64,000 bases of DNA from an uncultured Halanaerobiales bacterium (lineage in GTDB: Bacteria; Bacillota; Halanaerobiia; Halanaerobiales; M55B127): positions 1,736 to 65,735 of the forward strand of contig CAYSHP010000007.1 of NCBI GenBank assembly GCA_964430875.1. The letters run 5' to 3'. The notes under the pieces were generated by a model, which saw only the letters and a program-made list of their open reading frames with translations, was not told the DNA's origin and did not search any database. How positions within the stretch are numbered: position 1 is the first letter of the stretch; every line of letters begins with the position of its first letter. Shown piece by piece: positions 2,380 to 34,731 of the stretch. The position numbers and the translations under genes were made by a program.

Positions 2380-4443
2380 TTATAGTTTCTTATTATTTTT
2401 ATCTTTATACATATTTTTGTCCGCTATTCTTTTGGCTTCAAAGAGTTCCTCATAAGTTTTATTAATTACTTTGTATCCTAAAGAAATACTTAAATCTATT
2501 TTTAAATTGTTTTCTTCAGTGTATGTTCTACATTTATCTTTTATTCTATTACATATCAATTCCGTTTCCTTAGCATCTGTTTCAGGCAGCAAAATGCCAA
2601 ATTCATCTCCTCCAAGACGAGCTACTATATCTTCTTTTCTGGTAATACTTTGTAAAATTTCGGCAACAATTATTATATATTCATCCCCTTTTGCATGTCC
2701 TAAATTATCATTGATAGTTTTTAGACCATCAAGATCTCCAATGACAATAGATATTGGTAATCGTCTTGAATGGTTTAATCTCTCCATCTCTTTTTCAAAA
2801 TATGCTCTGTTGTATAGATCGGTCATTTGGTCATGATATGATAAATATCTCATGAAATCCTCTTCTTTTTTTCTGGTTGTTATATCTCTCATAAATACCA
2901 CATAATAAGGTTCTTCGAGTTCGAGATATAAAGCACTGACCTCGATGTCAATTATCTTACCATCTTTCTTTTTATGCTTTGTTTCAAATTTAGCATATTC
3001 TTCTTTCTGTATTTTTAGCATTCTCTTATCTATATCTTCTTTATCATCAATTATTTCTAACTCAGATATATGCATACCCATTAATTCTCTTTGGGTATAT
3101 CCTACCATATTTGCATAAGATTCATTAACATCTGTAATATAAGCATATTTATTAATCATCCAATAACCATCAGGTGTCTTTTCTAAGATTTTTTCTAGTC
3201 GTTCTTTTGATATCAGTGATTTTTTTAAGTCTTTTTGCATTTTATTAAATGAATCAGCTAATATACCTATTTCATCATTTCTTTTCATGTTTATTTTCTT
3301 ATCAAGGTTACCTTTGCCTAAAGAAGTTGCTATAGAAGCAAGTTCAATTAAAGGCTTAGCTAATTCTTTGCCAAATTTTATAGATAATAAGGATAAAAAT
3401 ATTACTATAATTATACCCGAATATATCAATACTCTTCTAATTTCATAAAAATCACCTAATTTTTCATCTAGATCTGCTGTTATTAATACCTTCCAAGTTT
3501 CATCTTTATTGCCTTTTTTTTGATCAATAGACACAGTGTTGCCCCCAAATTTAATTCTGTTATTACCGTTAGTTATATTTACATTAGCACTACTAAATAT
3601 CTTTTCTTCACCATCAACATTAACAATATAAGAGTTGTTATCATTATCTAATTTATTTAAAACTTTCTGATTAACTTCTGTAGATAAAGGCTCCTTGTCT
3701 TTTTCATAAACAATATATCCGCCGGATCTTACAATTTTTAAATTGCCCACCATATATGAATAACTATAGTTTTCTTCTAAATTAGATAAAAGCCCTTTTA
3801 TATTAACATTACACTTTAAAATGCCTATTATGATATCATCCTTTTTGATAGGAACAACTATTCCTAAAACATAACCTTCAACACTGCTATCATATCCCCT
3901 GTCATCTAGATATATTGTGCCGTAATTCTTATATGAACCCTGCCACCAATATTTATGAGAATGGGCAAGAGTTGTTAACTTACCAGTAGAAGCTACTAAA
4001 ACTCCATATTTATTGGTTAAAAATATTTCCCCAAAAAAATCAGAATCACTCTGATATAAATCACTAAAATAATTTGCCACTTTATTTTTAGTATATCTTT
4101 CTATAAAAGGATGATCATTTTTTTTTAAAAGCATCCATTTTTCATTCAATAAATTTATTATACTTTTTCTAGTTAATTCATTCATGTTTTGATAATTTGC
4201 ATTACTGGTTTCTAAGCTTTCTTTAATAATTGGTGATTTAGAAATAGTCTCAACTCTTGCAATTATTTCTTTTATTTCCTTATCTAGATTTAAAGAATAA
4301 TTGACCGCTAAATTTTTCATATCCTGTTTATTATTTTCGATATATACTTTCTTAAAATGAAAATTATGTATTAACAGCATTAACAAAATAGCTAGAAATC
4401 CCACAACTATAATCCTATAAGTTAACTTTTTCTTTAATTTCAT
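2380..4443 (-). CDS. Membrane sensor diguanylate cyclase (TM, Cache-like extracytoplasmic domain, TM, HAMP, PAS, GGDEF)
   Basis: 687 aa. N-terminal TM, about 300 aa extracytoplasmic region, second TM, HAMP (DEIGILADSFNKM) and PAS. GGDEF is intact (RLGGDEFGILL) with an RxxD I-site (RKED) 5 residues upstream. Confidence 0.9.
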   Translation of the reverse strand: MKLKKKLTYRIIVVGFLAILLMLLIHNFHFKKVYIENNKQDMKNLAVNYSLNLDKEIKEIIARVETISKSPIIKESLETSNANYQNMNELTRKSIINLLNEKWMLLKKNDHPFIERYTKNKVANYFSDLYQSDSDFFGEIFLTNKYGVLVASTGKLTTLAHSHKYWWQGSYKNYGTIYLDDRGYDSSVEGYVLGIVVPIKKDDIIIGILKCNVNIKGLLSNLEENYSYSYMVGNLKIVRSGGYIVYEKDKEPLSTEVNQKVLNKLDNDNNSYIVNVDGEEKIFSSANVNITNGNNRIKFGGNTVSIDQKKGNKDETWKVLITADLDEKLGDFYEIRRVLIYSGIIIVIFLSLLSIKFGKELAKPLIELASIATSLGKGNLDKKINMKRNDEIGILADSFNKMQKDLKKSLISKERLEKILEKTPDGYWMINKYAYITDVNESYANMVGYTQRELMGMHISELEIIDDKEDIDKRMLKIQKEEYAKFETKHKKKDGKIIDIEVSALYLELEEPYYVVFMRDITTRKKEEDFMRYLSYHDQMTDLYNRAYFEKEMERLNHSRRLPISIVIGDLDGLKTINDNLGHAKGDEYIIIVAEILQSITRKEDIVARLGGDEFGILLPETDAKETELICNRIKDKCRTYTEENNLKIDLSISLGYKVINKTYEELFEAKRIADKNMYKDKNNKKL

Positions 4444-4503
4444 AATATCGATCCCTCTATTTTACTTTTTGGTACTTAATCTATAAACTTAGTTATTATT
4501 GAT

Positions 4504-7014
4504 TTATCTTTTTTTAACAAAAGCAAAATCATAAACTGGTTCACCATAATTATCTTTAATTACTCTGACCTTTATATTTACATCTATATATTCTCCATTT
4601 TTCTTAATGTACTTTTTATTCAATTCAAAGTTATCTAGTTCTTTATTAGTTATCTTATCCATATACTCTTTATTTTTTTGATTGTCCTCTTTCTTTGTAA
4701 TATCAAAATGAGTCATTGTTTTTAACTCTTTTTCTGTATAGCCTAGTAATTCACAAAATTTATAATTAACTTCTATTATATTCCCCTTAAAATCAGAAAT
4801 TATAATTGCAATTGGCATTTCATTAAATACAATTCTTTTTTTATTTCTGACTATGCTTAATTTTCTTTTGAAATATTCTTTTTTATTTTGTTTTTTCATC
4901 TCATACATTTTCTCATCTGATATTTTAATTATTTCATTCAAATCCTGTTTATATGACTTTTTGATTGCAATACCGATCGATATGCTGAAATCAATATCTT
5001 TTATATCTATTTTTTTGATATTAATTGCTATTCTATTTTTTATTTTTTTAAGATTATCGTATTTTATTTCAGGCAAGATAATAGAAAATTCATCTCCGCC
5101 TATACGACATATAATGTCTGATTCTCTAACCACATTTCTTAAAACATCAGCTACTCTCTTAATATATTTATCACCTATACTATGACCATACATATCATTT
5201 ACTGATTTTAAATTGTCAATATCAGCAGTAATAACACCTATCGGTAATTTGCGTGATTTATTTATTCTCTTAACTGTATCTGCAAAATATGCCCGATTAT
5301 ATAAACCTGTTAATTGGTCCTGTATTGAAAGATACTTTATTTTATCTTTTTCTTTTTTCCTTTGAGTTATATTTCTTACAAATGCATAAAAGATAGGGCT
5401 AGCTTTTTCATTTATATATGTTTTATTAACCTCTACATCTATTACCTTTCCATTTTTCTTTTTATATTTAGTTTCAAAAAGTTCTTTCTTCTTTTCAATT
5501 ATTTTTTGTAAGCGTGCCTGTAAACCTTTTTTAGTTTCTTTAATATCAATATCTGAAATTTTCATATGCAATAATTCTTTTTCATTATAATCAACCATAT
5601 CTATAAAGGATTTATTAACTCTTATAAATTCACCCTTTTCATTAATTATAAAGAAACCATCTCCAGTTGTTTCAAGTATTTTATCAAGCTTATCTTTTTG
5701 TTCTTGCAATTTTTCATCTTTTATTCTTTTTTCTGTTATATTTTCATGTGCGATTACTGCACTGTATTCACCTTCTCCAACAAATGGAGTTATCCTCATT
5801 TTAAACCATCTTTTTTTATAAGGTGAATGACAAGGATATTCTATAGAAAAAGTGTCTGCCTTACCCTTAATAACTCGTTTTATACCGTCATAAACAATCC
5901 CTGCCTCTTTAGACCATTCACCTTCAGAATTTTTACATACTTCTAAATAATTTGTGCCTACTCCGCTTTCTTCTTCTTTTAAACCATTATTTACAGCAAA
6001 ATTTTCCCAAGCATTATTTACATATTTAATAAATCCTTTTCTATCTAGAACAGCTATATTTGCCGATAAGGAATTTATTAAGGATTGGCTTAATTCTTTT
6101 TCTTTTATTAAATTTTTCTCATATTTTTTCCTTTTAGAAATGTCCCTGGATACACTTAATACCATTTTCTTTTTATCTAAATTCACAATTTTTGAATTAA
6201 TCTCAACAGGTACTTTTTTGCCATTTTTAGTTTTATGAATAGTTTCAAAGATGTGTTCTTTTTTCTCTTCTAATTTTTTTATATTTTCTTTCCGCTTTTC
6301 TATAGTTTCTGATGTTATTACATCTAGTTCTTCGGGGCTAAGTTTTAAAAGTTCATCTTTAGTATATCCTAATTTTTTACAGGTAGCCTCATTAACATCA
6401 ATAAATGGTCCTAATTTATTTTCCTTGCTCTGAGGATAGTATTCATGGAAGAATATCGGGTCATTAATACTATCAAGAATCATTTGGGAATCATGCTTTA
6501 TTTGTTCATAGTCTTTTATTCTTTCATTTAAAATACTATTAAGGTATATATTTTCCAGCTTATATTCAATGATCGTTTTAAATTCTTTCATTAGATCTTT
6601 TTCTTCTTCTTTGAAATTTCTTTCTTTATTATCAAAGACACAAAAAGTCCCAAATGTTTTACCGTCAGGTTTTAAAATCGGTACTCCTAAATATGATTTC
6701 AAATTATATTTTTGGGACTGAGGAAACTCTAAATTATTTTTGTTTTTATAATTACTAATTTCTATTAATCTCTTTTCCTTTAATACTTTTTCACAATAAT
6801 GACCAGCCATTTTATATCTATCATTTTTTTTAAAGGGATTATTATTGGAGTTGTTTGTACTAATGATTACTAAATTATCATTATCGCGTTTTGTAATCAT
6901 AGCAATATTAACTTTTAAAAGGCTGACAATTAAATCTGCTATCTTTTGCCATTCTTCTTCCACTAATAATAGCAACTCATATTTATTTTTATTATTGGGT
7001 CTTCCACTAAACAT
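4504..7014 (-). CDS. Cytoplasmic multi-PAS diguanylate cyclase (GAF-like, PAS x3, GGDEF, C-terminal PAS)
   Basis: The ORF is 4504..7023. I prefer ATG at 7014 (GAGGTG RBS 6 nt upstream) over the GTG at 7023. Carries RIGGDEFSIIL with an RESD I-site. An extra PAS domain follows the GGDEF domain. Confidence 0.88.
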   Translation of the reverse strand: MFSGRPNNKNKYELLLLVEEEWQKIADLIVSLLKVNIAMITKRDNDNLVIISTNNSNNNPFKKNDRYKMAGHYCEKVLKEKRLIEISNYKNKNNLEFPQSQKYNLKSYLGVPILKPDGKTFGTFCVFDNKERNFKEEEKDLMKEFKTIIEYKLENIYLNSILNERIKDYEQIKHDSQMILDSINDPIFFHEYYPQSKENKLGPFIDVNEATCKKLGYTKDELLKLSPEELDVITSETIEKRKENIKKLEEKKEHIFETIHKTKNGKKVPVEINSKIVNLDKKKMVLSVSRDISKRKKYEKNLIKEKELSQSLINSLSANIAVLDRKGFIKYVNNAWENFAVNNGLKEEESGVGTNYLEVCKNSEGEWSKEAGIVYDGIKRVIKGKADTFSIEYPCHSPYKKRWFKMRITPFVGEGEYSAVIAHENITEKRIKDEKLQEQKDKLDKILETTGDGFFIINEKGEFIRVNKSFIDMVDYNEKELLHMKISDIDIKETKKGLQARLQKIIEKKKELFETKYKKKNGKVIDVEVNKTYINEKASPIFYAFVRNITQRKKEKDKIKYLSIQDQLTGLYNRAYFADTVKRINKSRKLPIGVITADIDNLKSVNDMYGHSIGDKYIKRVADVLRNVVRESDIICRIGGDEFSIILPEIKYDNLKKIKNRIAINIKKIDIKDIDFSISIGIAIKKSYKQDLNEIIKISDEKMYEMKKQNKKEYFKRKLSIVRNKKRIVFNEMPIAIIISDFKGNIIEVNYKFCELLGYTEKELKTMTHFDITKKEDNQKNKEYMDKITNKELDNFELNKKYIKKNGEYIDVNIKVRVIKDNYGEPVYDFAFVKKR

Positions 7015-7064
7015 AAAATACACCTCTTTAAACCATATTTCAATTTAATTTTTTCGGTTAAAAA

Positions 7065-9332
7065 TTAAAATATGTCTTTTAAACTAGAATTTATGAATCG
7101 TTCAACAATCTTTGGTGAAAATTGAGTTCCCTTATTAGAAATTAACTCTTCTAAAGCTTCCTTTTTACTTAGATTGTTCCTGTAAGGTCTTTCAGAAGTC
7201 ATGGCATCCCATGCATCTGCTACCGATAATATTTGCGAAATGATCGGTATTTGATCTCCTTTTATACCCTTTGGATAACCATTGCCATCCCATCTTTCAT
7301 GATGATATAAAATATATTCAGCTATTTCCCTTAATTCTATTGAATTCTTCAAAGTTTCATATCCCCAGACCGAATGTTTTTTAATAATAAAATATTCATT
7401 TTCCGATAATTTACCTTTTTTATTCAAAATATTTTTAGGTATTATCATTTTACCTATATCGTGTAAAAGTCCAGCCCAATAAGTCATCTCTATGATTTTT
7501 TGGGAAAGATCCATTTCTCTGGCAATTTCTCTCGAGATATTTGCTACTGTTTCATTATGCCCTTTTGTATAATCATCATGTATTTCGAGTAAATTTGTTA
7601 AAGAAATGATAACCTCATCTGTAAACTCTCTTTGCAATCTATTATAATTTTTTAATGTTAAATACGAAGAAGCCAATCTTTCTATAGAATATAAGGTCCT
7701 CTGGGCATTTTCTGTAAACTCTTCGCTACTATCTTTTTTTATTTCTATAGACATTCGACCAATTATGTTATCATTAACTAATATATTGACTAGTAAAGAA
7801 TTTTTTATTTTTTTTATATTATTTTGGTAATGATCATACAACTTAATAGGTGCTTTATCCTTATCAATAATATTGTTATCTTCAATTTCTTTTATATAAA
7901 ATTTATCATGATTTTTCATATGTATTCTCTTAATATCCAATTTATTTATATTATCAATATTATAACCTACAGCATCAATGAATTTAGCTTTACCATTTTC
8001 AAATAAGTAAATCAACCCATGGTCTGCTTCCGGGATTAATTCCATAGATTTTTTCAAAACTATCGATAAAAACTCTTCTTTATTAGTATCAGTTCCTATT
8101 TTTGAGATTAATTCAATGATATTTTCTAGGTTATAACTCAATATATCTAACTCTTTATAAGTTCTTTCTAAATCTTCATTCATAGCTCTTATTTCTTCAT
8201 TATTTGCCTCAAGCTCCATATATTTTTCTTGTAACTCATCGTTGGCTTCCATTATTTTCTTTTGTTTTTCTTTTCTATCAGAAATATCTCTACTAATAGC
8301 CAATAAATATTTTTTTCCGTTTTCTCTATAAGCATTCAATTTAGTTTCAACCGGTATGCTTTTTTTATTCTTATTAATATGAACTGATTCATAGCTGAAT
8401 TTATTTTCTTTAAATAGTTTTGTAAAAATTTTTTGATGAATTTCTTCAACTATTCTTTCAGGTACTATTTTAGAAGGACTAATTTCTTTAAATTCTTCTC
8501 TAGTATAGCCTAATACTTCACAAGCTTTATCGTTTACTTTTATAAATTTACTGTCTTCATATTTATCTTGAATTTCTAGTAAAAAAACTTCGTCATTAAT
8601 CTTGTTGAATAAAAACTCATATTCATTATTTTTTGACTTTAATTTACGCTTAAATTTACTTTCTCTTTTTTTAAATTCCTGTATGTTTTTAAGCCATGTT
8701 TTAATTTTATACTCAACAATTCTATTGTTTTTAAACCCATCAGGCTCAATATAATAAGGATTTTCATACAGATTGTCCTTCCAAATTATATAATGATGTA
8801 ATTCAAGAATTGATTTAATAATTTCATTATCAAACTTATTCAAATTATATCTACATAAAGCAATTACAGGATAATTATCAAAAATTTCATCATTCAACAA
8901 CCACTCATATTTAATTAGTTCTTCTTTCCCTCTTTTATAGTTTAAGACCCAACTTAGTTCTCCTGTAATACTAAGCCCAGTATAACCATCTTCAATAGCT
9001 TGGGAAGATAAATTTTTCAAAAGTGTTATCATCTTATCTGCTTCAAATTGATCACTTAAAGCATAAGTTTCTTCTTTAGATAAAAATTGTAATTGTCTGG
9101 TTTTTATTAACTGACTAAAATCATCTCGTTCTTTTTGCAGTTCACTATTTATTAACTTTGTATTTGCATCCCCTTGTATATATAAACATATTTCTCCCCG
9201 TTTTAAACTGTTTTTTATAAAAGAAACAACTGGATTTAATGTTTCCTTTTCTTCCTCGTATAATAATACTGAATGGTCGCCCGGTTCTAATTTATCCATG
9301 TTCTCCATTTTTCCAAAATGAACATTCTGCAC
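7065..9332 (-). CDS. MEDS-PAS-GAF-HD-GYP c-di-GMP phosphodiesterase
   Basis: 755 aa. GTG start with an AGGGGG RBS. The N-terminus GDHSVLLYEEE..GEICLYI..LSITGELSW..ALCRYN matches the MEDS pattern. The HD-GYP core is intact (LLHDIGK, HHERWDGNGYP). Confidence 0.88.
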   Translation of the reverse strand: MQNVHFGKMENMDKLEPGDHSVLLYEEEKETLNPVVSFIKNSLKRGEICLYIQGDANTKLINSELQKERDDFSQLIKTRQLQFLSKEETYALSDQFEADKMITLLKNLSSQAIEDGYTGLSITGELSWVLNYKRGKEELIKYEWLLNDEIFDNYPVIALCRYNLNKFDNEIIKSILELHHYIIWKDNLYENPYYIEPDGFKNNRIVEYKIKTWLKNIQEFKKRESKFKRKLKSKNNEYEFLFNKINDEVFLLEIQDKYEDSKFIKVNDKACEVLGYTREEFKEISPSKIVPERIVEEIHQKIFTKLFKENKFSYESVHINKNKKSIPVETKLNAYRENGKKYLLAISRDISDRKEKQKKIMEANDELQEKYMELEANNEEIRAMNEDLERTYKELDILSYNLENIIELISKIGTDTNKEEFLSIVLKKSMELIPEADHGLIYLFENGKAKFIDAVGYNIDNINKLDIKRIHMKNHDKFYIKEIEDNNIIDKDKAPIKLYDHYQNNIKKIKNSLLVNILVNDNIIGRMSIEIKKDSSEEFTENAQRTLYSIERLASSYLTLKNYNRLQREFTDEVIISLTNLLEIHDDYTKGHNETVANISREIAREMDLSQKIIEMTYWAGLLHDIGKMIIPKNILNKKGKLSENEYFIIKKHSVWGYETLKNSIELREIAEYILYHHERWDGNGYPKGIKGDQIPIISQILSVADAWDAMTSERPYRNNLSKKEALEELISNKGTQFSPKIVERFINSSLKDIF

Positions 9333-9614: not shown

Positions 9615-10073
9615 TTAGTGTAAGTTTTTAATTTCTTTAAGTTCTTTATTCTTTAAAACATTACTGGATTCAATAATTATAATTAATTCATCATTTAAAT
9701 TTGCAATCCCGTTAATATAATTAGCATCGATTTTTTTGGTTATTTCAGGGGCATCATTAATGTCTTTTTGATTTAAACCATTTATTCCAATAACTTCTTC
9801 CACCATAAGACCAACCAATTCATTATCGACAGATATGATAATTATTTTATTGTTATCTATATTAATATTTAAATTAAACTTCTTATCTAAATTAATGATA
9901 GGAATTATCTGTTCCCGCAAATTGATAACTCCCTCCACATAAGAAGGTGCTTCCGGGATAAAAGTTAGTTCCTCAGTCGTAATTATCTCCCGGCTGTCCA
10001 TCACATCAATACCATATTTTTGTCTTCCTAGTGCAAAAATTACATGCTGTCTATTTAGATCTTTTTCAGGCAT
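9615..10073 (-). CDS. cheW: Chemotaxis coupling protein CheW
   Basis: 152 aa with a CheW-like fold (FALGRQKYGIDV..REII). The ATG overlaps the upstream cheW stop. RBS GAGGAGG. Confidence 0.9.
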   Translation of the reverse strand: MPEKDLNRQHVIFALGRQKYGIDVMDSREIITTEELTFIPEAPSYVEGVINLREQIIPIINLDKKFNLNINIDNNKIIIISVDNELVGLMVEEVIGINGLNQKDINDAPEITKKIDANYINGIANLNDELIIIIESSNVLKNKELKEIKNLH

Positions 10074-10572
10074 TTTTTACCTCCTCTGATGGATTATTGT
10101 TATCAAAAAGTATATCTTCTATATTAATAATTACAATCAATTTCCCTTTAGAAGTGAATACACCCTTAATATATTCTTCTTCTAAACTCTGCTTTCCATC
10201 AGTAGTTTTCTCAATATCATCAGAATTAATTGAAAGAACTTCTCTGACATCATCTATATATAATCCTACCATTATTCCATCAATATTTATTATGATTATC
10301 TTATTATTGTCCTTTTTTTTATGATTTTTCACTAATCCTAATTTTTCTTTTAAATCAATTACCGGTGTAACTTTACCTCTGATATTTATAACACCCATTA
10401 CATGTTTAGGTGTATTGGGTACATTTGTTATCTTAGGCGGTTTTATTATCTCTTTCGCTTTTTCTAACTGCAGTCCATAATATTCTTGTTCCAATTTGAA
10501 AGTAAGATACTGGTTTAAACTACCTATATTTGTTTCTTTTTTATCAAGATAAATATCATCTTTTTCTGACAT
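10066..10572 (-). CDS. cheW: Chemotaxis coupling protein CheW (second copy)
   Basis: 168 aa. YLTFKLEQEYYGLQLEKAKEII..GVINIRGKV is typical of CheW. Confidence 0.9.
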   Translation of the reverse strand: MSEKDDIYLDKKETNIGSLNQYLTFKLEQEYYGLQLEKAKEIIKPPKITNVPNTPKHVMGVINIRGKVTPVIDLKEKLGLVKNHKKKDNNKIIIINIDGIMVGLYIDDVREVLSINSDDIEKTTDGKQSLEEEYIKGVFTSKGKLIVIINIEDILFDNNNPSEEVKNA

Positions 10573-10585
10573 TAGAAATCCCCCT

Positions 10586-12580
10586 TTAGGCTATATCACG
10601 AACATCTAATATTAAAGCTACTTCGCCATCCCCAATTATTGTAGCTCCACTTATATTTTTTACATTACCCAGATAATCACTAAGTGATTTAATTACTATC
10701 TCTTGTTGATATAGTAATTCATTAACTATCAATCCCACTTCTTTACCACTAGATTTAACTATTACAACGGACATCTCTTCCTGCTCAGTATAATTATTAT
10801 CTCCCACTTCAATATTTAAACTCTTACGGCTGTCTATAAGGGGTATAGTTTCATTTCTTAAAACTATCACATCATTACCCTTTACCTGTCTGATTTCCTT
10901 AGATTTAATTTTTAAGGTTTCACTTATCGCATTAAGCGGTATTGCAAATACTTCCTCATCTATTTTTACCATAAGGGCATCTTGAATAGCTAATGTTAGA
11001 GGAAGTGATATAACAATCTTAGTACCCTCTTCCTTTTCAGATTTTATGTAAACATCTCCATCTAAGCTTTTTATAGTTCTTTTAACAACATCCATTCCTA
11101 CTCCACGACCAGAAACATTTGAGACCTGGTCAGTAGTGCTTAAGCCCGGTTCAAAGATAAGCTGTAATTTTTTCTCTCTGTCCATTTCTTCAAGTTCTTT
11201 TTGGGTGATCAATTCTTTTTCAACAGCTTTAGCTGTCAATTTATCTATATTAATCCCTGAACCATCATCTTCTACTTCTATAATTATTTCGCTGCCTTTT
11301 TGATAAGCCTTTAACTTTATTTTCCCAGTTTTATCCTTACCCTTTTTAACTCGAGTTTCTGGTTTTTCAATACCGTGATCAACAGCATTTCTCAGTAAAT
11401 GGGTTAAGGGATCTCCCAGTTCATCTATAATAGAACGGTCTAGCTCTGTTTCTTTACCTTTGATTAAAAAATCAATTTCTTTTTGGCTGTCCTTTGATAG
11501 ATCGCGAACCATGCGGGGAAAACGATTAAACATAACTCCGATCGGTTCCATTCTGATCTGCATTACTGTATGATGCAGTTCCATGGTTACCCTATCAAGT
11601 TGAGGCAGTATATCTTTAAATCCTTCCGAATTTATGTTCAGTGCCTCTAAGCGGGTTTTATTAATAAGTAATTCACCAATCATATTCATTAACTTATCTA
11701 ATTTCTTGATTCCCACCCTCACTGTAGAAGATACTGCAAACTTAGAAGAACTACTGTCTTCATTTTTTGCTTTTTGTTTTTCATTATCTGATTTCATATT
11801 CTTATCTGTTGATTCAATATCCATAGCAGTAATATTTATTGCTACTACATCTGTAATATTACTAAGATTATTAACTATATCTTCTCTATTTTCATTTGAA
11901 ATTAATATCATTTTAACTACATCTTCTTCTATTTCTGCTTCATCTACACTTTTTATATCTGGATCTGATTTAAAGATATAGCCCATTTCTTTGGCTTCTT
12001 TCAAAACCATAGAAGCCCTAACTTGTTTAAACTCAGTAACTTTATCTAATTCAGCATTAACAGCATAAACTGTATCTAGCTCTTTTTTGTTTTCTTGAAT
12101 ATTATTTTTTTCAACCTCATTTAAAGTTAGCCTTTTTGAATCAAAGTTATCATTATTATTCTCTATATCTTGATTAGAAGTTTCTTTATGTGCTTTTCCC
12201 TCTTCTATATTATTTTCCAGTTTATGCAAATATACTTCTAAATTAAAATCATCTGTACCCTCATCTTTAATCTGCTTTACTATTTCTTCTATGTAATCTA
12301 TTCCTTCAAATAAAAGGTCTATAATTTCTGTAGTCACATCTATTTTATTATTTCTAACCTTATCCATTAAATTTTCAATTTTATGTGTTAACTCTGTCAA
12401 TACATCAAATCTCATAGTTGCTGACATGCCCTTTAAAGAATGGGCTGCTCTAAATAATGAAGCAACTACTTCTTTATCTTCGGGGTTGTTTTCTAATTTC
12501 AAGATATTATCATTTAATACCATGATGTATTCTTCTGATTCTGCGAAGAACATATCTAAATATTCATTATTATCACTCAA
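10586..12580 (-). CDS. cheA: Chemotaxis histidine kinase CheA
   Basis: 664 aa. Hpt motif AAHSLKGMSATM, HATPase motifs (DDGSGI, GRGVGMDVV) and a C-terminal CheW-like domain. TTG start with a GAGGAGG RBS. Confidence 0.95.
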   Translation of the reverse strand: MSDNNEYLDMFFAESEEYIMVLNDNILKLENNPEDKEVVASLFRAAHSLKGMSATMRFDVLTELTHKIENLMDKVRNNKIDVTTEIIDLLFEGIDYIEEIVKQIKDEGTDDFNLEVYLHKLENNIEEGKAHKETSNQDIENNNDNFDSKRLTLNEVEKNNIQENKKELDTVYAVNAELDKVTEFKQVRASMVLKEAKEMGYIFKSDPDIKSVDEAEIEEDVVKMILISNENREDIVNNLSNITDVVAINITAMDIESTDKNMKSDNEKQKAKNEDSSSSKFAVSSTVRVGIKKLDKLMNMIGELLINKTRLEALNINSEGFKDILPQLDRVTMELHHTVMQIRMEPIGVMFNRFPRMVRDLSKDSQKEIDFLIKGKETELDRSIIDELGDPLTHLLRNAVDHGIEKPETRVKKGKDKTGKIKLKAYQKGSEIIIEVEDDGSGINIDKLTAKAVEKELITQKELEEMDREKKLQLIFEPGLSTTDQVSNVSGRGVGMDVVKRTIKSLDGDVYIKSEKEEGTKIVISLPLTLAIQDALMVKIDEEVFAIPLNAISETLKIKSKEIRQVKGNDVIVLRNETIPLIDSRKSLNIEVGDNNYTEQEEMSVVIVKSSGKEVGLIVNELLYQQEIVIKSLSDYLGNVKNISGATIIGDGEVALILDVRDIA

Positions 12581-12623
12581 TTTCTTTCCTCCTCTATCAT
12601 TATGAACATATCACTTTAACGGC

Positions 12624-12980
12624 TTATATTATTTTATCAATTGCCTCTTTAATTCTCTTTTTGTTAAAAGGTTTCACAATAAAATCTTTAGCCCCAGCTT
12701 CAATTGCTTCTATTACAAGTGATTGTTGACCCATTGCAGAACACATTATTACTTTGGCATCAGAATCAAATTCCATTATTTTTTTTACTGCCTCGATTCC
12801 ATCCATTTCCGGCATGGTTATATCCATTGTTACTAAGTCCGCTCCATGTTTTTGATATGATTCAAAACCTATTTTCCCATTGGCTGCTTCATCTACAATC
12901 TCATGCCCATTATTTTCTAATATGTTTTTTAAATTCATTCGCATAAAAGCTGCATCATCTACTATTAATATTTTTGCCAC
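12624..12980 (-). CDS. cheY: Chemotaxis response regulator CheY
   Basis: 118 aa single REC domain (ILIVDDAAFMR, LVTMDITMPEMDG, KPF). Confidence 0.95.
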   Translation of the reverse strand: MAKILIVDDAAFMRMNLKNILENNGHEIVDEAANGKIGFESYQKHGADLVTMDITMPEMDGIEAVKKIMEFDSDAKVIMCSAMGQQSLVIEAIEAGAKDFIVKPFNKKRIKEAIDKII

Positions 12981-13003
12981 TTTTCATCCGCTCCTTATCA
13001 TTT

Positions 13004-13031
13004 AAAAGAAGAGGCTCTAAGAGCCCCTTCT
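13004..13031 (-). other. Intercistronic stem-loop between mcp and cheY (possible attenuator or mRNA stabiliser)
   Basis: Minus strand AAGAAGGGGCUC-UUA-GAGCCUCUUCUU forms a 12 bp stem with one G-U pair. The following U tract is weak. Confidence 0.4.
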
Positions 13032-13039
13032 TGGTCAAC

Positions 13040-15112
13040 TTATATTTCAAATTGCTCAACTTTACTAGAAAGCTTTTGTGCCATCTCTGAAAGATTTTCT
13101 GATGCTTTAACAATTTCTTCGGTTGAGGCACTTTGTTCTTCACTGGAAGCAGCTACTTCTTCTGCATTACTAGATGCCTGTTCACTAACTGAGGCAACTT
13201 CATCTACAGCTTTTTCTACTTGTGAACTCTTCGCAGCCATATCTTCTGCTGCCTCTGTGATATCTTTAATAAGGCTTCTTAGACTAACTGCTGCAGAATC
13301 AATCTCACCAAAGGAATTCTCAGTTGTTTTAATTGCATCTACGCCATCTTCAACTGCCTCTTCTGCTTTATTCATTTGTTTTATAGTATCTTGAACACCA
13401 TCTTGTATTTCATTGATCAAAGAAGCAATGTTTTCTGTTGCATCAGAAGATTCTTCAGCAAGTTCTCTAATCTCATCTGCAACCACACTAAATCCTCTGC
13501 CAGCTTCTCCTGCTCTAGCTGCCTCTATTGCAGCATTTAAAGCAAGTAGATTGGTCTGGGCCGAAATACCATTAATCAGTTCTACAATATCACCAATTTG
13601 TTCTGATAATTTGCCCAAGTCATCTATCCTATTTGATACAGCCTGTGATTGATTTTTAACTTCTCTGACTTGGTCGATTGAATTATTTATTGAGGTATTA
13701 CCTTCTTTAATATTATCCATAACATTACCAGCTTTTTCATCCATTTCTCCAGACTTTTCTCCCACATTATCAATTCTACCGGCTAAATCTTCAACATTCC
13801 CTTTTGTTTCTTCAATCTGAGCAGTCTGCTCTTCAGCCCCGGAAGCAACTTCTTGAATAGCAGTTCCTACCTGTTCAGCGGAGGCTGAAATCTCTTCACT
13901 GGAAGCTGAAAGCTCTTCACTAGAAGAAGAAAGGTCACTAGCGATTTCTGCCACATCTTCAATTACACCTCGTAAATTATCCTGCATTTTATTTAATGCA
14001 TTTGCTAAAGTCCCTATTTCATCCTCTGAATTAACATCAATTTTTTTAGCTCTCAAATTACCTTGAGCAATCTCTTTAGCAAACTCTACTCCGAGATTAA
14101 CAGGTTTAGTAATACTTCTAGTTATTATAAATGCGATAAGGGCTCCAATTATTAAAGCAACAATTAAAGCTATAATTAAATTTCTAATTGCCGCTGTTTG
14201 CCCCTCTTCCATTTCGGCAAGTTGTAAGTCCTGTAATTCATTTGCACTAGCCAAAAATTCATCAGCTTTAGTTTCCATAGTTGCTTTATTTTGATCTTTG
14301 GTTAGTTCTATTTCATGAATTTGTTGGAATACATTTTCTGTATTATTCAATTGATTTAATATACCCTCTGCTGTTTTAATATCTTTTTCCTCATTAAAGG
14401 AATTTTTAAGTTCCGTTGCTGTTTCTTTAGCAGTTTGGAAAGCAGCTAAAGTACTGTTTGCATATCTTTCCTGCCCTTCTGCATCAGCAAGGTTAATTAT
14501 GTAATTTCTCTCCTGTCTTCCTATATTATCAACATTTTGAACCAACTGATTAGCAAGTAATAAAGTTTGAAGTTTTTGTTCGATATCCCTTATTTCTACA
14601 TTTCCCATTCCACTATTCATATCAGCTATTAGTTCGTCATATTCTTCCTTTTGGGCTTTTTCTAAACTCTCTATTTGACTTTTTAGTTCTTCTTCTACAG
14701 CCACAAATTCAGTTCTAAGTTCATTTTGCTGAAAAAGAGAGTCCGCATAAGAAATAGCGGCTGTTTTATATTGATTAGCAAGAGACTGCATGTTATCAAT
14801 CCTTTTTTTATCAGCCTCTTCTTGCATTAGTTCTTTGGTTTTATCACCGCTTGCCACCATAGAACTTACCATCTGGTCTATATTATCAATATATATTTGT
14901 TCTTCTTGTAACATGAAATTTTTCTCATTTTGTCTAATTTCCAATGTCGTTTCAGCAAAACCAGCTGCATCATTAGAAATCTGAACGTCATGATCGACAT
15001 TATTTAAACCCTGATAACCCACTAATGCCATAATACCAGCTATCAAAATTAAAATTGCAAATCCTCCACCAATTTTAAACCCTAAATTTAAATTCTTAAA
15101 AAATTTTAACAA
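13040..15112 (-). CDS. Methyl-accepting chemotaxis protein (4HB-type sensor, HAMP, MA domain)
   Basis: 690 aa with two TM segments, HAMP and the conserved signalling tip ([33 protein letters not shown]). TTG start with a GGAGGAG RBS. Confidence 0.95.
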
Positions 15113-15410
15113 TATTACTCCTCCTTTTAATTATTAGATCATTTATTATTTATCCCAATTTAATTAATTGGGTTTACAACCAATATATTTATATGTTTTG
15201 AAAATTGTGAAATTGAAAACAATTATTAATATTTGTAATATTTATTTCGTAATATATATTAGATCTATTAAATGTGCTGAATGGCTTTTTAGACAATTAT
15301 TCTCCTCTATGATAGTTATAGCTCTTAAATACTTCATTTAAGTATAAATATTAATTAATTTATATATTTATTATTTTCCTGATTATGTTGATAATATTAC
15401 TTAAGTTTGT

Positions 15411-15527
15411 AAATAAAAAAATATGGCCCTTCTTTTTGGCCATAGTATCTATGGTAACCTGGCAGTCTATTTAAAATAGACCCATAGCTTTGCGTCCTTT
15501 TCTTACGAAAAGTTTGCCTTTTTCATC
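15411..15527 (-). promoter_or_regulatory. c-di-GMP-I (GEMM-I) riboswitch aptamer plus intrinsic terminator expression platform
   Basis: The minus-strand RNA carries GGCAAAC-hairpin(GUAA)-GGACGCAAAGCUAUGGGUC...GACUGCCAGGUUACCAUAG. This is followed by UAUGGCC-N9-GGCCAUA and U7. It matches the class I c-di-GMP aptamer core as I remember it (Vc2). Confidence 0.85.
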
Positions 15528-15788
15528 ATATTATTTGATTTTATTATTTTTTATATGGTATTATAATAACATCTATTATAATAAATAACTTATTTTTCCC
15601 TATAAACTTCCTAACTCTTAAAAATTCTTTCATATTATATCACTTTATCTATATTTATTTTATAACAAATATTATAAAATTTCAGTAAAAAATTATAAAA
15701 ATATGTTCTTTATAGTAACTTTTTGTAAAATATTATCAATTTTTAGTGGTTTTGTGTATAATGATATACAATCTGGGGGTTTTTACTT

Positions 15789-16943
15789 TTGGAATATTTT
15801 TCTTCAAGATTAAAGTTATTAAGGAAAGAAAATAATCTTACTCAAAATAAACTCGCAAATATTTTAGGTTATTCAAGATCAACAATAGCTAAATATGAAG
15901 CAGGTCAGATGATCCCCTCGGGCAGTTTTTTATATGATGTTGCAGAATATTTCGAAGTTTCATTAGACTATCTATTAGGCCGAACTAATATCCATGAAAG
16001 TTTTGGTGACTATATTTTATCAAAAGCACCTAGTATATTATTATTTGTAGACCCTAAAGATGGAAAAATAATAGACCACAGTCCCTCTGCTCTCGATTTT
16101 TACGGATATAAAAGACATGAACTTCTTAAAAAAACCATATATGAACTAAATACCCTACCAAAAGATGAAGTTAAAAAATTAATGAAAAAAGCTATTGAAG
16201 CAAAACATAAAACATATTTTTTTAAACATAAACTGTCTAATGATAAAATAAAAGAAGTAAAAGTAACAACTACAAAAGTTACCATCAATAATAGAAAGGT
16301 AATTGGTTCTTTAATTCAAGACCTTAGTATTAGTAATAATAAGAAAGAAGATAATAAACTATCTAAAAATTTATTTCAATCAATTAATAATATAGCTTTA
16401 CAAAATATTCATCATAAAGACCAACATATTTATAATGTCACTAAACTTGCTGCTGATATTGGTAAACATCTCTTTTTATCCACAAAAGATCTAGAAAATC
16501 TAACATTTGCTAGTCAGCTTCAAAATATTGGAGAAGTTAATATACCCCACCATATTATTAATAAGCCAAACATATTAAATGAAAATGAATATTCAATAAT
16601 AAAAAGCCATCCTGTTTTTAGTCTGCAATTACTTAAAAATACTTCTATTAATAAAAAAATAAAAAAAATTATATTACAACATCATGAAAGATTAGATGGT
16701 TCTGGATACCCGAATAATTTAACGAAAAATGAAATTTTAATAGAAGCACAAATTATCGGAGTAGCTGATGTAATAATTGCTATGATATCTAAAAGGCCTT
16801 ACAGAAAATCATTTGATTTAGAAGATGCTTTAAAAGAAATTAATAAAAATAAAGGTATAAAATATAATAAAGAAATAGTAAATATTTGTAATCATATCTT
16901 AAAAAATACTAAATATAAACCTGAATTTAAAGCCAACTATTAA
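15789..16943 (+). CDS. XRE-family HTH / PAS / degenerate HD-GYP protein (candidate c-di-GMP-binding regulator)
   Basis: 384 aa. TTG start with a GGGGG RBS. XRE HTH (LTQNKLANILGYSRSTIAKYEAG) and PAS. The HD-GYP domain has QLQNIGE in place of LHDIGK but retains HHERLDGSGYP. Confidence 0.85.
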   Translation: MEYFSSRLKLLRKENNLTQNKLANILGYSRSTIAKYEAGQMIPSGSFLYDVAEYFEVSLDYLLGRTNIHESFGDYILSKAPSILLFVDPKDGKIIDHSPSALDFYGYKRHELLKKTIYELNTLPKDEVKKLMKKAIEAKHKTYFFKHKLSNDKIKEVKVTTTKVTINNRKVIGSLIQDLSISNNKKEDNKLSKNLFQSINNIALQNIHHKDQHIYNVTKLAADIGKHLFLSTKDLENLTFASQLQNIGEVNIPHHIINKPNILNENEYSIIKSHPVFSLQLLKNTSINKKIKKIILQHHERLDGSGYPNNLTKNEILIEAQIIGVADVIIAMISKRPYRKSFDLEDALKEINKNKGIKYNKEIVNICNHILKNTKYKPEFKANY

Positions 16944-17091: not shown

Positions 17092-17120
17092 TAAAATCCC
17101 GGTTAACCCGGGATTTTTGT
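17092..17120. terminator. Bidirectional intrinsic terminator between the convergent HTH-HD-GYP gene and hsp20
   Basis: AAAATCCCGG-TTAAC-CCGGGATTTTT: a 7 bp GC-rich stem flanked by A and T tracts. Confidence 0.7.
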
Positions 17121-17575: not shown

Positions 17576-17596
17576 ACAGACACCTCCTGAAATTTT

Positions 17597-17631
17597 TTTG
17601 ACTTTATCTGTCTTTCTGACCTTTATTGACT
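17597..17631 (-). promoter_or_regulatory. CtsR-like operator (RGTCAAA heptad repeats) overlapping the hsp20 transcription start
   Basis: The minus strand reads AGTCAAT-AAA-GGTCAGA (17631..17615), against the CtsR consensus RGTCAAA-NAN-RGTCAAA. A third perfect AGTCAAA heptad lies at 17603..17597. Confidence 0.5.
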
Positions 17632-17642
17632 TTCTACTTATT

Positions 17643-17670: not shown

Positions 17671-17673
17671 ATA

Positions 17674-17708: not shown

Positions 17709-17749
17709 AATTAAAATTATCTCAATATATCTTAAATATACTCAATTTT

Positions 17750-34710: not shown

Positions 34711-34731
34711 TATATTTTTAATTATATATTA

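What the first reader, a model, noticed from the sequence alone, without database searches (positions are those of the whole stretch)
15789..16943. XRE-HTH / PAS protein whose HD-GYP domain has lost the HD dyad: candidate c-di-GMP-sensing transcription factor
I aligned this protein by eye to the intact HD-GYP protein in the same window (7065-9332):
- YWAGLLHDIGKMIIPKNILNKKGKLSENEYFIIKKH aligns with TFASQLQNIGEVNIPHHIINKPNILNENEYSIIKSH. The metal-binding His-Asp is therefore Gln-Asn, and the following Lys is Glu.
- VADAWDAMTSERPYR aligns with VADVIIAMISKRPYR, so a conserved Asp is lost.
- HHERLDGSGYP is retained.

The domain probably cannot hydrolyse c-di-GMP but may still bind it or a related nucleotide. 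It is fused to a DNA-binding XRE HTH and a PAS domain. The gene is transcribed divergently from the c-di-GMP riboswitch/che operon.

Degenerate EAL and GGDEF receptors are well known. I am not aware of a characterised HTH-fused degenerate HD-GYP effector.
Basis: partly seen in the sequence, partly recalled or inferred. Interest (0 to 1): 0.7.

Follow-up and report, generated by a model that had tools for sequence, protein, structure and literature searches.

The report
DNA-binding protein with a dead c-di-GMP-cleaving domain
This gene encodes a DNA-binding regulator whose c-di-GMP-cleaving (HD-GYP) domain has lost its catalytic residues but kept its nucleotide-contact residues, so it most likely senses c-di-GMP and controls the neighbouring chemotaxis and c-di-GMP genes, which would make it the first HD-GYP-based transcription factor if experiments confirm it.

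Summary
ORF 15789-16943 (+) encodes a 384-aa XRE-HTH / PAS / HD-GYP protein. Profile and family alignments put Gln245-Asn246 at the HD dyad, Glu249 at the HDxGK lysine and Ile330 at the second Asp of DxxD. HHE-GYP is intact.

The QN change is the end point of a family-wide trend. About 42 HTH-fused HD-GYP proteins turned up, and every organism named for them is in Halanaerobiales. The catalytic pair D183/K225 (PmGH numbering) survives in 4 of 42 each, against 210 and 214 of the 218 nearest non-HTH relatives. H189 or the HD dyad has been lost several times independently. The nucleotide-contact residues (GYP Tyr, Ile294, RxYR) stay almost invariant.

The closest structural match is DvhD, a degenerate PAS/HD-GYP protein shown in 2026 to bind c-di-GMP without metal or hydrolysis.

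In eight of the nine family loci with enough upstream sequence, the gene sits divergent from a chemoreceptor and/or HD-GYP gene. In this window the partner is a c-di-GMP riboswitch, a che operon, one HD-GYP gene and two GGDEF genes.

Best reading (about 0.55): a non-catalytic, c-di-GMP-sensing one-component regulator, the HD-GYP counterpart of the HTH-EAL protein PdeL. Ligand binding, DNA binding and the operator are all untested. I rate it a new variant of a known kind.

The parts
15789..16943 (+). Gene for the 384-aa XRE-HTH / PAS / degenerate HD-GYP protein (TTG start). It is monocistronic: divergent from the upstream operon and convergent with hsp20 downstream.
   Evidence: An identical protein (P0001) is called on two metagenome contigs.
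15807..15983 (+). XRE/Cro-C1-type helix-turn-helix DNA-binding domain (aa 7-65). The recognition-helix region SRSTIAKYE is nearly invariant in the family.
   Evidence: Pfam HTH_19 E 1.5e-16 and HTH_3 E 1.1e-15. Family alignment. AF2 helices 2-62.
16035..16328 (+). PAS domain (aa 83-180). No cofactor was identified.
   Evidence: Pfam PAS_9, 31.8 bits against a cut-off of 27. AF2 PAS fold with pLDDT around 90. Foldseek PAS/LOV matches.
16326..16397 (+). Long linker ('stalk') helix between PAS and HD-GYP (aa 180-203). It corresponds to the helix that splays apart when DvhD binds c-di-GMP.
   Evidence: AF2 helix H180-203. Top Foldseek match is 9rc0, the DvhD PAS/HD-GYP fragment. PMC13090378.
16392..16907 (+). 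HD-GYP domain (aa 202-373), degenerate at the catalytic and M1 metal site.
   Evidence: Pfam HD_5, 112.6 bits. phmmer to 4mcw, 5z7c and 9rbz. Foldseek 9rbz TM 0.82-0.85.
16521..16535 (+). QNIGE in place of HDxGK: Q245, N246 and E249 replace metal ligands H221 and D222 and catalytic K225.
16407..16427 (+). I207-H213, aligned to the DPYTAGH motif of the nearest non-HTH relatives. D183 is replaced by Ile, the E185 position by His, and metal ligand H189 is kept as H213.
16680..16712 (+). HHERLDGSGYP motif (aa 298-308), intact.
16761..16808 (+). VADVIIAMISKRPYRK (aa 325-340). Metal ligand D305 is kept (D327). D308 is replaced by I330. The c-di-GMP-specificity motif RxY[K/R] is kept (R336, Y338, R339).
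15733..15779 (+). Best promoter-like site for the gene (TTATCA, 18 nt spacer, TATAAT; 15733-15762) and the GGGGG ribosome-binding site (15775-15779).
   Evidence: These are consensus matches only.
15528..15788 (.). Shared divergent promoter region between the riboswitch 5' end and the regulator's start codon. This is the expected location of the operator, which was not identified.
15449..15527 (-). c-di-GMP-I-GGC riboswitch aptamer in the leader of the divergent MCP/che operon.
   Evidence: Rfam RF03167, 71.3 bits against a gathering score of 59. The same arrangement occurs upstream of the KN-variant orthologue in L093.
9615..15112 (-). Probable target operon: MCP (13040-15112), CheY (12624-12980), CheA (10586-12580) and two CheW genes (10066-10572, 9615-10073).
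2380..9332 (-). c-di-GMP turnover genes on the same strand, downstream of the che genes: canonical MEDS-PAS-HD-GYP (7065-9332), GAF-PAS-GGDEF (4504-7023) and dCache-HAMP-PAS-GGDEF (2380-4443).
17093..17117 (.). Palindromic GC-rich hairpin between the convergent regulator and hsp20 genes, probably a bidirectional terminator.

Best explanation
The protein is a cytoplasmic one-component transcription regulator. An XRE-type HTH binds DNA. A PAS domain and a long stalk helix hold the dimer together. [quoted passage not shown]

By analogy with DvhD, c-di-GMP binding in the canonical pocket would pivot the stalk helices. That would change the spacing of the two HTH domains and so their affinity for an operator in the 260-bp divergent promoter region (15528-15788). 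The regulated genes would be the regulator's own gene and the opposing operon: riboswitch, MCP, CheY, CheA and two CheW genes, and possibly the HD-GYP and GGDEF genes behind them. This would close a feedback loop on c-di-GMP and chemosensing, and the PAS domain would add a second input.

What is shown:
- the domain architecture;
- the substitutions;
- family-wide loss of catalytic residues with retention of nucleotide contacts;
- structural similarity to DvhD;
- conserved divergent synteny.

What is inferred:
- c-di-GMP binding;
- lack of hydrolysis;
- DNA binding and the target genes;
- the direction of regulation.
For: **1. Architecture.** HTH, PAS and HD_5 all score above the Pfam cut-offs. 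The AF2 model has mean pLDDT 88 and shows HTH, PAS, a stalk helix and HD-GYP.

**2. Catalytic residues lost.** D183 is Ile, H221 is Gln, D222 is Asn, K225 is Glu and D308 is Ile. In PmGH, alanine at each of these five positions abolishes activity (PMC4159591).

**3. Loss is tied to the HTH fusion.**

| Residue | 218 nearest non-HTH HD-GYPs | 42 HTH-fused proteins |
|---|---|---|
| D183 | 210 | 4 |
| K225 | 214 | 4 |
| H189 | 217 | 30 |
| H221 | 215 | 36 |
| D222 | 218 | 37 |

- Y285 and I294 are kept in all 42 HTH-fused proteins, and R314 in 40.
- Position K317 is Arg in all 42.
- The RxY[K/R] motif is the c-di-GMP-specific form, as opposed to the cGAMP-type RxxQ/N.

**4. Mosaic, repeated loss of M1-site ligands on the NJ tree.** This is the pattern expected once catalysis is dispensable.

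**5. Precedent.**
- DvhD has a PAS-stalk-HD-GYP module with SQ in place of HD.
- It binds c-di-GMP with high affinity, without metal and without hydrolysis, and binding splays the stalk helices.
- It is the top Foldseek hit to the model (9rc0, E 9e-12; 9rbz, TM 0.82-0.85).
- Five of its eight contact residues are identical here (Y307, L263, M332, R336, Y338).

**6. Synteny.**
- In eight of the nine family loci with enough upstream sequence, the gene lies divergent from a chemoreceptor and/or HD-GYP gene. In two of them a PAS-GGDEF-HD-GYP gene lies in the same divergent gene group.
- The ninth locus (L093) shows only a divergent c-di-GMP-I-GGC riboswitch before its contig ends.
- That riboswitch occurs in both HD-less relatives whose upstream DNA is available.

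**7. Functional analogue.** PdeL (HTH-EAL) is a c-di-GMP-sensing transcription factor. Hengge predicted that HD-GYP proteins could play the same role (PMC5052742).
Against: - There is no biochemical evidence of any kind.
- H274, H298, H299, E300 and D327 stay nearly invariant even in the HD-less members. A one-metal site, and some residual chemistry or metal/redox sensing, therefore cannot be excluded. DvhD, by contrast, has also lost its HH pair.
- Gln and Asn can still ligate metals weakly.
- Two DvhD contact residues differ here (K582 aligns to Y268, E668 to K355).
- Glu249 adds a negative charge near the phosphate-binding region.
- No conserved palindromic operator could be found in six orthologous upstream regions or by aligning the three closest ones.
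- The riboswitch is absent next to most orthologues.
- The PAS domain alone could be the real sensor.
Confidence: 0.55

Rival explanations
1. The HD-GYP domain binds no ligand. It serves only as a dimerisation or protein-interaction scaffold, for example contacting GGDEF proteins through the GYP motif as reported for RpfG. The PAS domain would then be the real sensor of this XRE regulator.
For: - Catalytically inactive HD-GYP proteins that act through protein-protein interactions are documented: RpfG and HnoD and PA2572.
- HD-GYP domains dimerise.
- GGDEF proteins are encoded in the divergent gene clusters.
- PAS is conserved in most members.
Against: - Short family members lack PAS altogether but keep HTH and HD-GYP (P0024-27, P0030, P0032, P0034). 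PAS is therefore dispensable and HD-GYP is not.
- The residues that contact the nucleotide, not only GYP, are almost invariant: I316, R336, R339, L263, K259. A pure scaffold does not need this.
Confidence: 0.18
2. The domain senses something other than c-di-GMP. Candidates are a metal or redox/O2/NO signal through the residual His cluster (H274, H298, H299, D327, E300), or another nucleotide such as pGpG or 3'3'-cGAMP.
For: - The M2-type ligands are invariant in all 42 family members, even where HD is lost.
- HD-GYP di-iron sites are redox-sensitive.
- DvhD also accommodates 3'3'-cGAMP and, weakly, pGpG.
- The family-wide K225-to-Glu change could create a new metal ligand.
- The riboswitch is the GGC variant of class I. 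I did not verify its ligand.
Against: - The RxYR motif is the c-di-GMP-type specificity determinant. The cGAMP-specific enzymes carry RxxQ or RxxN.
- The genomic neighbourhood is saturated with GGDEF and HD-GYP genes and c-di-GMP-class riboswitches.
- The nearly invariant guanine and phosphate contacts have no role in pure metal sensing.
Confidence: 0.15
3. The protein is still an active phosphodiesterase, a true 'trigger enzyme' like PdeL. Gln/Asn and the remaining ligands would hold enough metal for slow turnover, and substrate flux would control DNA binding.
For: - Five of the seven binuclear-site ligands remain.
- Basal family members (P0029, P0031, P0034, P0137) carry the full canonical catalytic set, so the ancestral HTH fusion was probably an active trigger enzyme.
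- Essentiality of some conserved His residues has been questioned for RpfG-type proteins.
Against: - Single alanine substitutions at H221, D222, K225, D183 or D308 each abolish PmGH activity. This protein carries non-conservative changes at all five.
- PA2572 (YN-GYP) and DvhD (SQ) have no detectable activity.
Confidence: 0.08

Closest known systems
DvhD of Desulfovibrio vulgaris (PDB 9rbz, 9rc0; Nat Commun 2026, PMC13090378)
   Same: - It has a PAS / stalk helix / HD-GYP module with the HD dyad replaced (SQ there, QN here).
- GYP, the RxY[K/R] motif and the base-clamping Leu, Met and Tyr are retained.
- It is the best structural match to the AF2 model.
- It is an experimentally shown, metal-free, non-hydrolysing c-di-GMP receptor whose stalk helices move on binding.
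   Different: - DvhD is an inner-membrane dCache receptor whose output is periplasmic (LapG-like protease control). This protein is soluble, with an N-terminal DNA-binding HTH.
- DvhD has also lost the HH pair (MN). Here HHE, H274 and D327 are intact.
- Sequence identity is only about 22%.
- Two DvhD contacts (K582, E668) are not conserved here.
PdeL (YahA) of E. coli, an HTH-EAL 'trigger phosphodiesterase' (PMC5052742)
   Same: A single polypeptide joins an N-terminal HTH DNA-binding domain to a c-di-GMP phosphodiesterase-type domain. c-di-GMP occupancy of that domain controls transcription, including feedback on c-di-GMP turnover.
   Different: - PdeL has a LuxR-type HTH and a class I (EAL) domain, and it is catalytically active.
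- This protein has an XRE-type HTH, an added PAS domain and a class II (HD-GYP) domain that is predicted to be inactive.
- The two share no homology; the resemblance is functional only.
PA2572 of P. aeruginosa (REC / YN-GYP)
   Same: - It is an HD-GYP variant with the dyad changed to xN (YN there, QN here) and no detectable c-di-GMP hydrolysis.
- It is encoded next to, and functionally linked with, a methyl-accepting chemotaxis protein (PMC3411652).
   Different: - PA2572 is a response regulator with a REC domain. It has no HTH and no PAS.
- Its link to the MCP runs through a REC-MCP protein contact, not transcription.
Canonical PAS-HD-GYP phosphodiesterases (the nearest non-HTH relatives, e.g. 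P0033, P0048, P0049; structural prototype PmGH 4mcw)
   Same: Same HD-GYP subfamily: the binuclear type with Tyr at position E185, E at position D308 and an RPYR motif. Identity over the domain is 35-45%.
   Different: - They keep DPYTAGH, HDIGK and the full metal set.
- They have no DNA-binding domain.

Membership tests
HD-GYP domain (Pfam HD_5 PF13487 / HD PF01966; ProSite PS51832) | Significant match to the domain profile over its full length | tested here: met
   HD_5 scores 112.6 bits against a cut-off of 27.2, covering profile positions 6-169 of 170. HD scores 47.8 bits against a cut-off of 22. phmmer E 7e-23 to PmGH.
HD-GYP domain (Pfam HD_5 PF13487 / HD PF01966; ProSite PS51832) | Eponymous His-Asp dyad (H221/D222 of PmGH) | tested here: not met
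   Gln245-Asn246 occupy these positions in three independent pairwise alignments and in the family alignment.
HD-GYP domain (Pfam HD_5 PF13487 / HD PF01966; ProSite PS51832) | HHExxDGxGYP motif | tested here: met
   HHERLDGSGYP at residues 298-308.
Active HD-GYP c-di-GMP phosphodiesterase | Complete binuclear metal ligand set (H189, H221, D222, H250, H276, H277, D305) plus the catalytic pair D183/K225 | tested here: not met
   Five of seven ligands are present. H221, D222, D183 and K225 are all replaced. Alanine at each of these positions abolishes PmGH activity.
Active HD-GYP c-di-GMP phosphodiesterase | Hydrolysis of c-di-GMP to pGpG or GMP | not testable with these tools
   This needs an enzyme assay.
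Degenerate HD-GYP c-di-GMP receptor (DvhD type) | Loss of metal ligands with retention of the c-di-GMP contact residues | tested here: met
   - PmGH contacts Y285, I294 and R314 are conserved as Y307, I316 and R336, and K317 is replaced by Arg (R339), the [K/R] alternative of the RxY[K/R] motif.
- Five of eight DvhD contacts are identical.
- The HD dyad is lost.
- The erosion is only partial: the HH pair is kept.
Degenerate HD-GYP c-di-GMP receptor (DvhD type) | PAS / stalk helix / HD-GYP fold | tested here: met
   The AF2 model has 9rc0 and 9rbz as its top Foldseek hits, with TM 0.61 and 0.82-0.85 normalised to the target.
Degenerate HD-GYP c-di-GMP receptor (DvhD type) | Membrane-anchored dCache receptor encoded in a Lap/Dvh adhesin operon | tested here: not met
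   The protein has no transmembrane or Cache domain. Its neighbours are che and c-di-GMP turnover genes, not adhesin, LapG or type I secretion genes.
Degenerate HD-GYP c-di-GMP receptor (DvhD type) | Measured c-di-GMP binding | not testable with these tools
   This needs DRaCALA, ITC or nanoDSF.
XRE (Cro/C1) family transcription regulator | N-terminal HTH_3-type domain above threshold | tested here: met
   HTH_19 scores 60.4 bits (cut-off 30.2) and HTH_3 scores 57.9 bits (cut-off 23). PDB XRE matches include 9iaq, 3op9 and 2p5t.
XRE (Cro/C1) family transcription regulator | Sequence-specific DNA binding to an operator | tested here: inconclusive
   No palindrome is shared by six orthologous upstream regions above the shuffle background. 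The region is 79% A+T (GC 0.21), so chance palindromes abound.
Trigger phosphodiesterase / PdeL-like c-di-GMP-responsive transcription factor | DNA-binding domain and c-di-GMP phosphodiesterase-type domain in one polypeptide | tested here: met
   The match is in architecture only: both the HTH class and the phosphodiesterase class differ from PdeL.
Trigger phosphodiesterase / PdeL-like c-di-GMP-responsive transcription factor | Enzymatically active phosphodiesterase domain | tested here: not met
   Activity is predicted to be absent from the residue changes. A few basal family members (P0029, P0031, P0034, P0137) do carry the full catalytic set.
RpfG / PA2572 family (REC-HD-GYP response regulators) | N-terminal receiver (REC) domain | tested here: not met
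   No Response_reg match was found.

The most novel reading that the evidence does not exclude
The XRE-HTH-(PAS)-HD-GYP proteins found here, with named sources only in Halanaerobiales, would be the first transcription factors that read c-di-GMP through an HD-GYP domain.

The family also preserves the whole evolutionary path in living members:
- catalytically competent 'trigger enzyme' forms (D183, HD and K225 intact in basal members);
- forms that have lost the catalytic pair (most members);
- a fully HD-less receptor (the QN protein of this window).

In this window the protein and a c-di-GMP riboswitch would control the same chemoreceptor/che operon at two levels, initiation and leader. That would be a double c-di-GMP checkpoint feeding back on c-di-GMP turnover genes.
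Probability: 0.4. Interest if true: 0.7.

Novelty: new variant of a known kind. Interest (0 to 1): 0.55.

Why it matters
c-di-GMP effectors built from degenerate GGDEF and EAL domains are textbook material. The first structurally proven degenerate HD-GYP receptor (DvhD) appeared only in 2026, and I found no described HD-GYP-based transcription factor. Hengge raised in 2016 the possibility that HD-GYP proteins could act like the HTH-EAL trigger enzyme PdeL.

This family would fill that gap. It offers a natural series of variants, from canonical to QN, for testing how an enzyme becomes a receptor. It also points to a direct transcriptional link between c-di-GMP and chemoreceptor expression in halophilic anaerobes, including Halanaerobium, for which cultured strains exist.

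The family appears small and confined to one order, and everything beyond sequence is still inference. The wider impact is therefore moderate.

Tried and rejected
**1. Operator search.** None of these approaches produced a credible operator.
- I enumerated inverted repeats (half-sites of 5-7 nt, gaps of 0-14 nt) shared by six orthologous upstream regions. Nothing exceeded the shuffle background.
- Within the window, the region is 79% A+T (GC 0.21), so the many palindromes and the one 23-nt direct repeat (15677-15699 and 15717-15739) cannot be told from chance.
- Aligning the three closest upstream regions (window, L093, L095) showed only the riboswitch conserved, not the spacer.

**2. Is the riboswitch a conserved partner of the regulator?** No.
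- It is absent next to the orthologues in L001, L003 and L006.
- In L008 and L009 it sits elsewhere in the locus.
- It is adjacent only in the window and in L093.

**3. An error of my own, corrected.** I first equated DvhD K582, a phosphate contact, with the HDxGK lysine. That would have made Glu249 evidence against binding. Re-deriving the numbering shows that chain index plus 490 fits M646, R650, Y652 and Y621, so K582 aligns with Y268 instead. I dropped the argument.

**4. A shifted HD dyad.** None exists. The only nearby histidines (H254, H255) are unique to this protein and are not conserved even in the QD and KN relatives.

**5. D308 loss as a family-specific sign of inactivity.** Rejected. 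203 of the 218 nearest non-HTH relatives have Glu at that position.

**6. Genome-collection scan with the N-terminal half of the protein.** Beyond the generic HTH region, it recovered only Halanaerobiales loci.

Full report
**Observation**

The ORF at 15789-16943 (+) is real. It is 384 aa long and starts at TTG, with a GGGGG ribosome-binding site 9 nt upstream. The identical protein is called on two metagenome contigs.

Pfam gives three domains above their curated cut-offs:
- XRE-type HTH (HTH_19/HTH_3) at residues 7-65, E about 1e-16;
- PAS_9 at residues 86-180, 31.8 bits against a cut-off of 27;
- HD_5, the HD-GYP model, at residues 202-362, 112.6 bits against a cut-off of 27.2.

An AlphaFold2 model built on 33 homologues has mean pLDDT 88. 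It shows the HTH (residues 1-62), a short flexible linker, the PAS domain (83-178), one long helix (180-203) and the helical HD-GYP domain (213-373).

**The substitutions**

phmmer alignments to the solved HD-GYP structures (PmGH 4mcw, V-cGAP3 5z7c, DvhD 9rbz) and a family alignment agree on the mapping. PmGH numbering is given first.

| PmGH residue | Role | Here |
|---|---|---|
| D183 | catalytic pair | I207 |
| E185 | third-metal ligand | H209 |
| H189 | metal ligand | H213 |
| H221 / D222 | HD dyad, metal ligands | Q245 / N246 |
| K225 | catalytic pair | E249 |
| H250 | metal ligand | H274 |
| H276 / H277 | metal ligands | H298 / H299 |
| Y285 | GYP, nucleotide contact | Y307 |
| I294 | nucleotide contact | I316 |
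| D305 | metal ligand | D327 |
| D308 | second-shell residue | I330 |
| R314 | nucleotide contact | R336 |
| K317 | nucleotide contact | R339 |

I add two refinements:
- The Asp that is lost is the second-shell D308. The metal ligand D305 is retained.
- D183, the putative general acid, is also lost.

In PmGH, alanine substitution of H221, D222, K225, D183 or D308 abolishes c-di-GMP hydrolysis (PMC4159591). This protein carries non-conservative changes at all five positions.

**The family**

A search of 5.8 billion proteins found about 33 proteins with the same HTH-(PAS)-HD-GYP architecture. Every source organism name among them is in Halanaerobiales: Halocella sp. SP3-1, Halanaerobium species and Halanaerobiales MAGs. 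A full HMMER scan of 1.84 billion cluster representatives added about ten more, which makes roughly 14 full-length and 4 short (PAS-less) clusters at 50% identity. A scan of one genome per species found matches extending beyond the generic HTH region mainly in Halanaerobiales. The few partial extensions in Clostridium and Bacillota contigs (L014, L016, L024) were not examined.

Most members keep the HD dyad. What distinguishes the family is loss of the D183/K225 pair. I compared the 218 nearest HD-GYP relatives without an HTH with the 42 HTH-fused proteins.

| Residue | Conserved in 218 non-HTH relatives | Conserved in 42 HTH-fused proteins |
|---|---|---|
| D183 | 210 | 4 |
| K225 | 214 | 4 (Glu in 29) |
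| H189 | 217 | 30 |
| H221 | 215 | 36 |
| D222 | 218 | 37 |

The residues that contact c-di-GMP in PmGH (Y285, I294, R314 and an Arg at K317) are essentially invariant in both groups. So are H250, H276, H277 and D305.

A neighbour-joining tree of the domain shows:
- Basal HTH members (P0029, P0031, P0034, P0137) have the canonical catalytic set.
- A crown group carries K225-to-Glu.
- Within the crown group, one clade has lost H189 (Phe or Tyr).
- Its sister clade, made up of the window protein (QN), P0002 (QD) and P0003 (KN), has lost H221.
- The dyad has also changed independently in P0023 (KN), P0032 (EN), P0133 (YD) and P0134 (HE).

This mosaic decay of one metal site, with strict retention of the nucleotide pocket, is what is expected when catalysis has become dispensable but ligand binding has not. 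The window protein is the most eroded member.

**Precedent and structural neighbour**

The best Foldseek matches of the model are DvhD PAS/HD-GYP (9rc0, E 9e-12) and c-di-GMP-bound DvhD HD-GYP (9rbz, TM 0.82-0.85, rmsd 2.3-2.9 Å). PmGH and PA4781 follow.

DvhD (Nat Commun 2026, PMC13090378) has these properties:
- It has SQ in place of HD and MN in place of HH.
- It binds c-di-GMP with high affinity, without metal.
- It does not hydrolyse c-di-GMP.
- On binding, its PAS-HD-GYP stalk helices splay by about 10 Å.

The depositors' residue numbers equal the chain index plus 490. Using that mapping, five of the eight canonical-site contacts are identical here: Y621 aligns to Y307, L577 to L263, M646 to M332, R650 to R336 and Y652 to Y338. 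Y523 aligns to H209, which is Tyr in most family members. K582 and E668 differ (Y268 and K355). The RxY[K/R] motif kept here is described as the main determinant of c-di-GMP specificity over cGAMP (Galperin & Chou).

**Genomic context**

In the window the gene is monocistronic. It is divergent from the following series, all on the minus strand:
- c-di-GMP-I-GGC riboswitch, 15449-15527, 71 bits;
- MCP, 13040-15112, with a strong AGGAGG ribosome-binding site;
- CheY, CheA and two CheW genes;
- a canonical MEDS-PAS-HD-GYP;
- two GGDEF proteins.

The two promoter regions share about 260 bp (15528-15788). The best promoter-like site for the regulator is TTATCA, 18 nt, TATAAT at 15733-15762.

The divergent pairing is conserved in other loci:

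| Locus | Member | Divergent neighbours |
|---|---|---|
| L001 | Halocella | Spo0E-like, MCP, HD-GYP |
| L003-L005 | Halanaerobium | CheR, MCP, KaiC-like ATPase, PAS-GGDEF-HD-GYP |
| L006, L007 | orthologue P0012 | MCP, hemerythrin (a full che operon lies downstream) |
| L008 | orthologue P0011 | MCP, rubrerythrin-like, tandem HD-GYP |
| L009, L010 | orthologue P0016 | PAS-GGDEF-HD-GYP, MCP, GAF-PAS-HD-GYP |
| L096 | basal canonical member (P0029) | HDOD/HD_5 protein, Spo0E-like |
| L097 | short form (P0027) | MCP |

The riboswitch is not a general partner. It recurs, almost identical in sequence, upstream of the KN-variant orthologue in L093.

**Mechanism proposed**

I propose a dimeric one-component regulator. 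c-di-GMP occupies the metal-depleted HD-GYP pocket and pivots the stalk helices, as in DvhD. This re-spaces the N-terminal HTH pair and changes occupancy of an operator in the shared promoter region. The result would be control of the chemoreceptor/che operon and, directly or by read-through, of c-di-GMP turnover genes. PAS would add a second input, which I could not identify.

The functional analogue is PdeL, the LuxR-HTH/EAL trigger phosphodiesterase of E. coli. [quoted passage not shown]

The following are shown:
- the domain architecture;
- the substitutions;
- the family statistics;
- the structural similarity to DvhD;
- the conserved synteny.

The following are inferred:
- ligand identity and binding;
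- absence of hydrolysis;
- DNA binding and the target genes;
- the sign of regulation.

**Rival explanations**

- **Ligand-free scaffold, with PAS as the sensor.** The PAS-less short forms and the nearly invariant nucleotide contacts argue against this.
- **A sensor of metal or redox state, or of another nucleotide.** The invariant H274, H298, H299, E300 and D327 cluster and the family-wide Glu249 keep this open. The RxYR motif and the c-di-GMP-rich neighbourhood argue for c-di-GMP.
- **Residual phosphodiesterase activity.** This is unlikely given five inactivating-type changes and the inactive precedents PA2572 (YN-GYP; PMC3411652) and DvhD. The basal family members may nonetheless be true trigger enzymes.

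**What failed**

No operator could be identified. The region is 79% A+T (GC 0.21) and the orthologues are too diverged.

**Novelty**

Degenerate HD-GYP proteins are known: PA2572, HnoD, ECA3548 and DvhD. HTH-fused c-di-GMP enzymes are known too (PdeL). The HD-GYP architecture census does not mention any HTH or DNA-binding fusion, and my literature searches found none. I therefore rate this a new variant of a known kind. It is a small family, seemingly restricted to one order, with a clear and testable prediction. Interest is moderate (0.55).

Noticed in passing
window 15113-15527 (-): The c-di-GMP-I-GGC riboswitch aptamer (15449-15527) lies about 320 nt upstream of the MCP ribosome-binding site and start codon. 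The scan found no intrinsic terminator in between, so the expression platform is unclear. L093 shows a similarly long leader of more than 368 nt. The ligand of the GGC variant class was not verified here.
   Followed up: partly
window 34650-34716 (-): Fluoride riboswitch (crcB motif, RF01734): 41.9 bits against a gathering score of 34.
   Followed up: no
window 7065-9332 (-): A 755-aa protein joins an N-terminal MEDS domain (PF14417, E 3e-40) to PAS, a long coiled region and a canonical HD-GYP domain. A MEDS-to-HD-GYP fusion is an unusual input-output pairing. It is separated from the upstream CheW gene by a 280-nt gap (9333-9614).
   Followed up: no
window 16548-16553 (aa H254-H255): A His-His pair lies just after the QNIGE motif (NIPHHIINKP). 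It is unique to this protein and absent even from the QD and KN relatives.
   Followed up: partly
L006 5192-5431 and L007 7560-7799: A 79-aa ORF matching only a fragment of HD_5 lies directly upstream of the orthologue on the same strand. It looks like a remnant of a duplicated or decayed HD-GYP gene.
   Followed up: no
L001 7537-7707; L096 4792-4965: A small Spo0E-like gene (aspartyl-phosphate phosphatase family) is the first divergent neighbour of the regulator in Halocella and one of the first two in the basal-member locus. This hints at a link to sporulation or phosphorelay control.
   Followed up: no
L003 2022-3476 (also L004, L005): In Halanaerobium, a KaiC/RecA-like double-ATPase gene sits between the MCP gene and a PAS-GGDEF-HD-GYP gene in the divergent operon.
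   Followed up: no
proteins P0121 (1002 aa) and P0138 (703 aa): Two database proteins match the XRE HTH part of the family profile 11 and 8 times. They may be tandem multi-HTH proteins or mis-assembled gene calls.
   Followed up: no
window 17132-20968 (-): Downstream of the regulator and convergent with it lie genes for Hsp20, a PHP-domain phosphoesterase and a LonC/LonB-like AAA protease. This stress/proteostasis cluster is also present on the second metagenome contig, L092.
   Followed up: no
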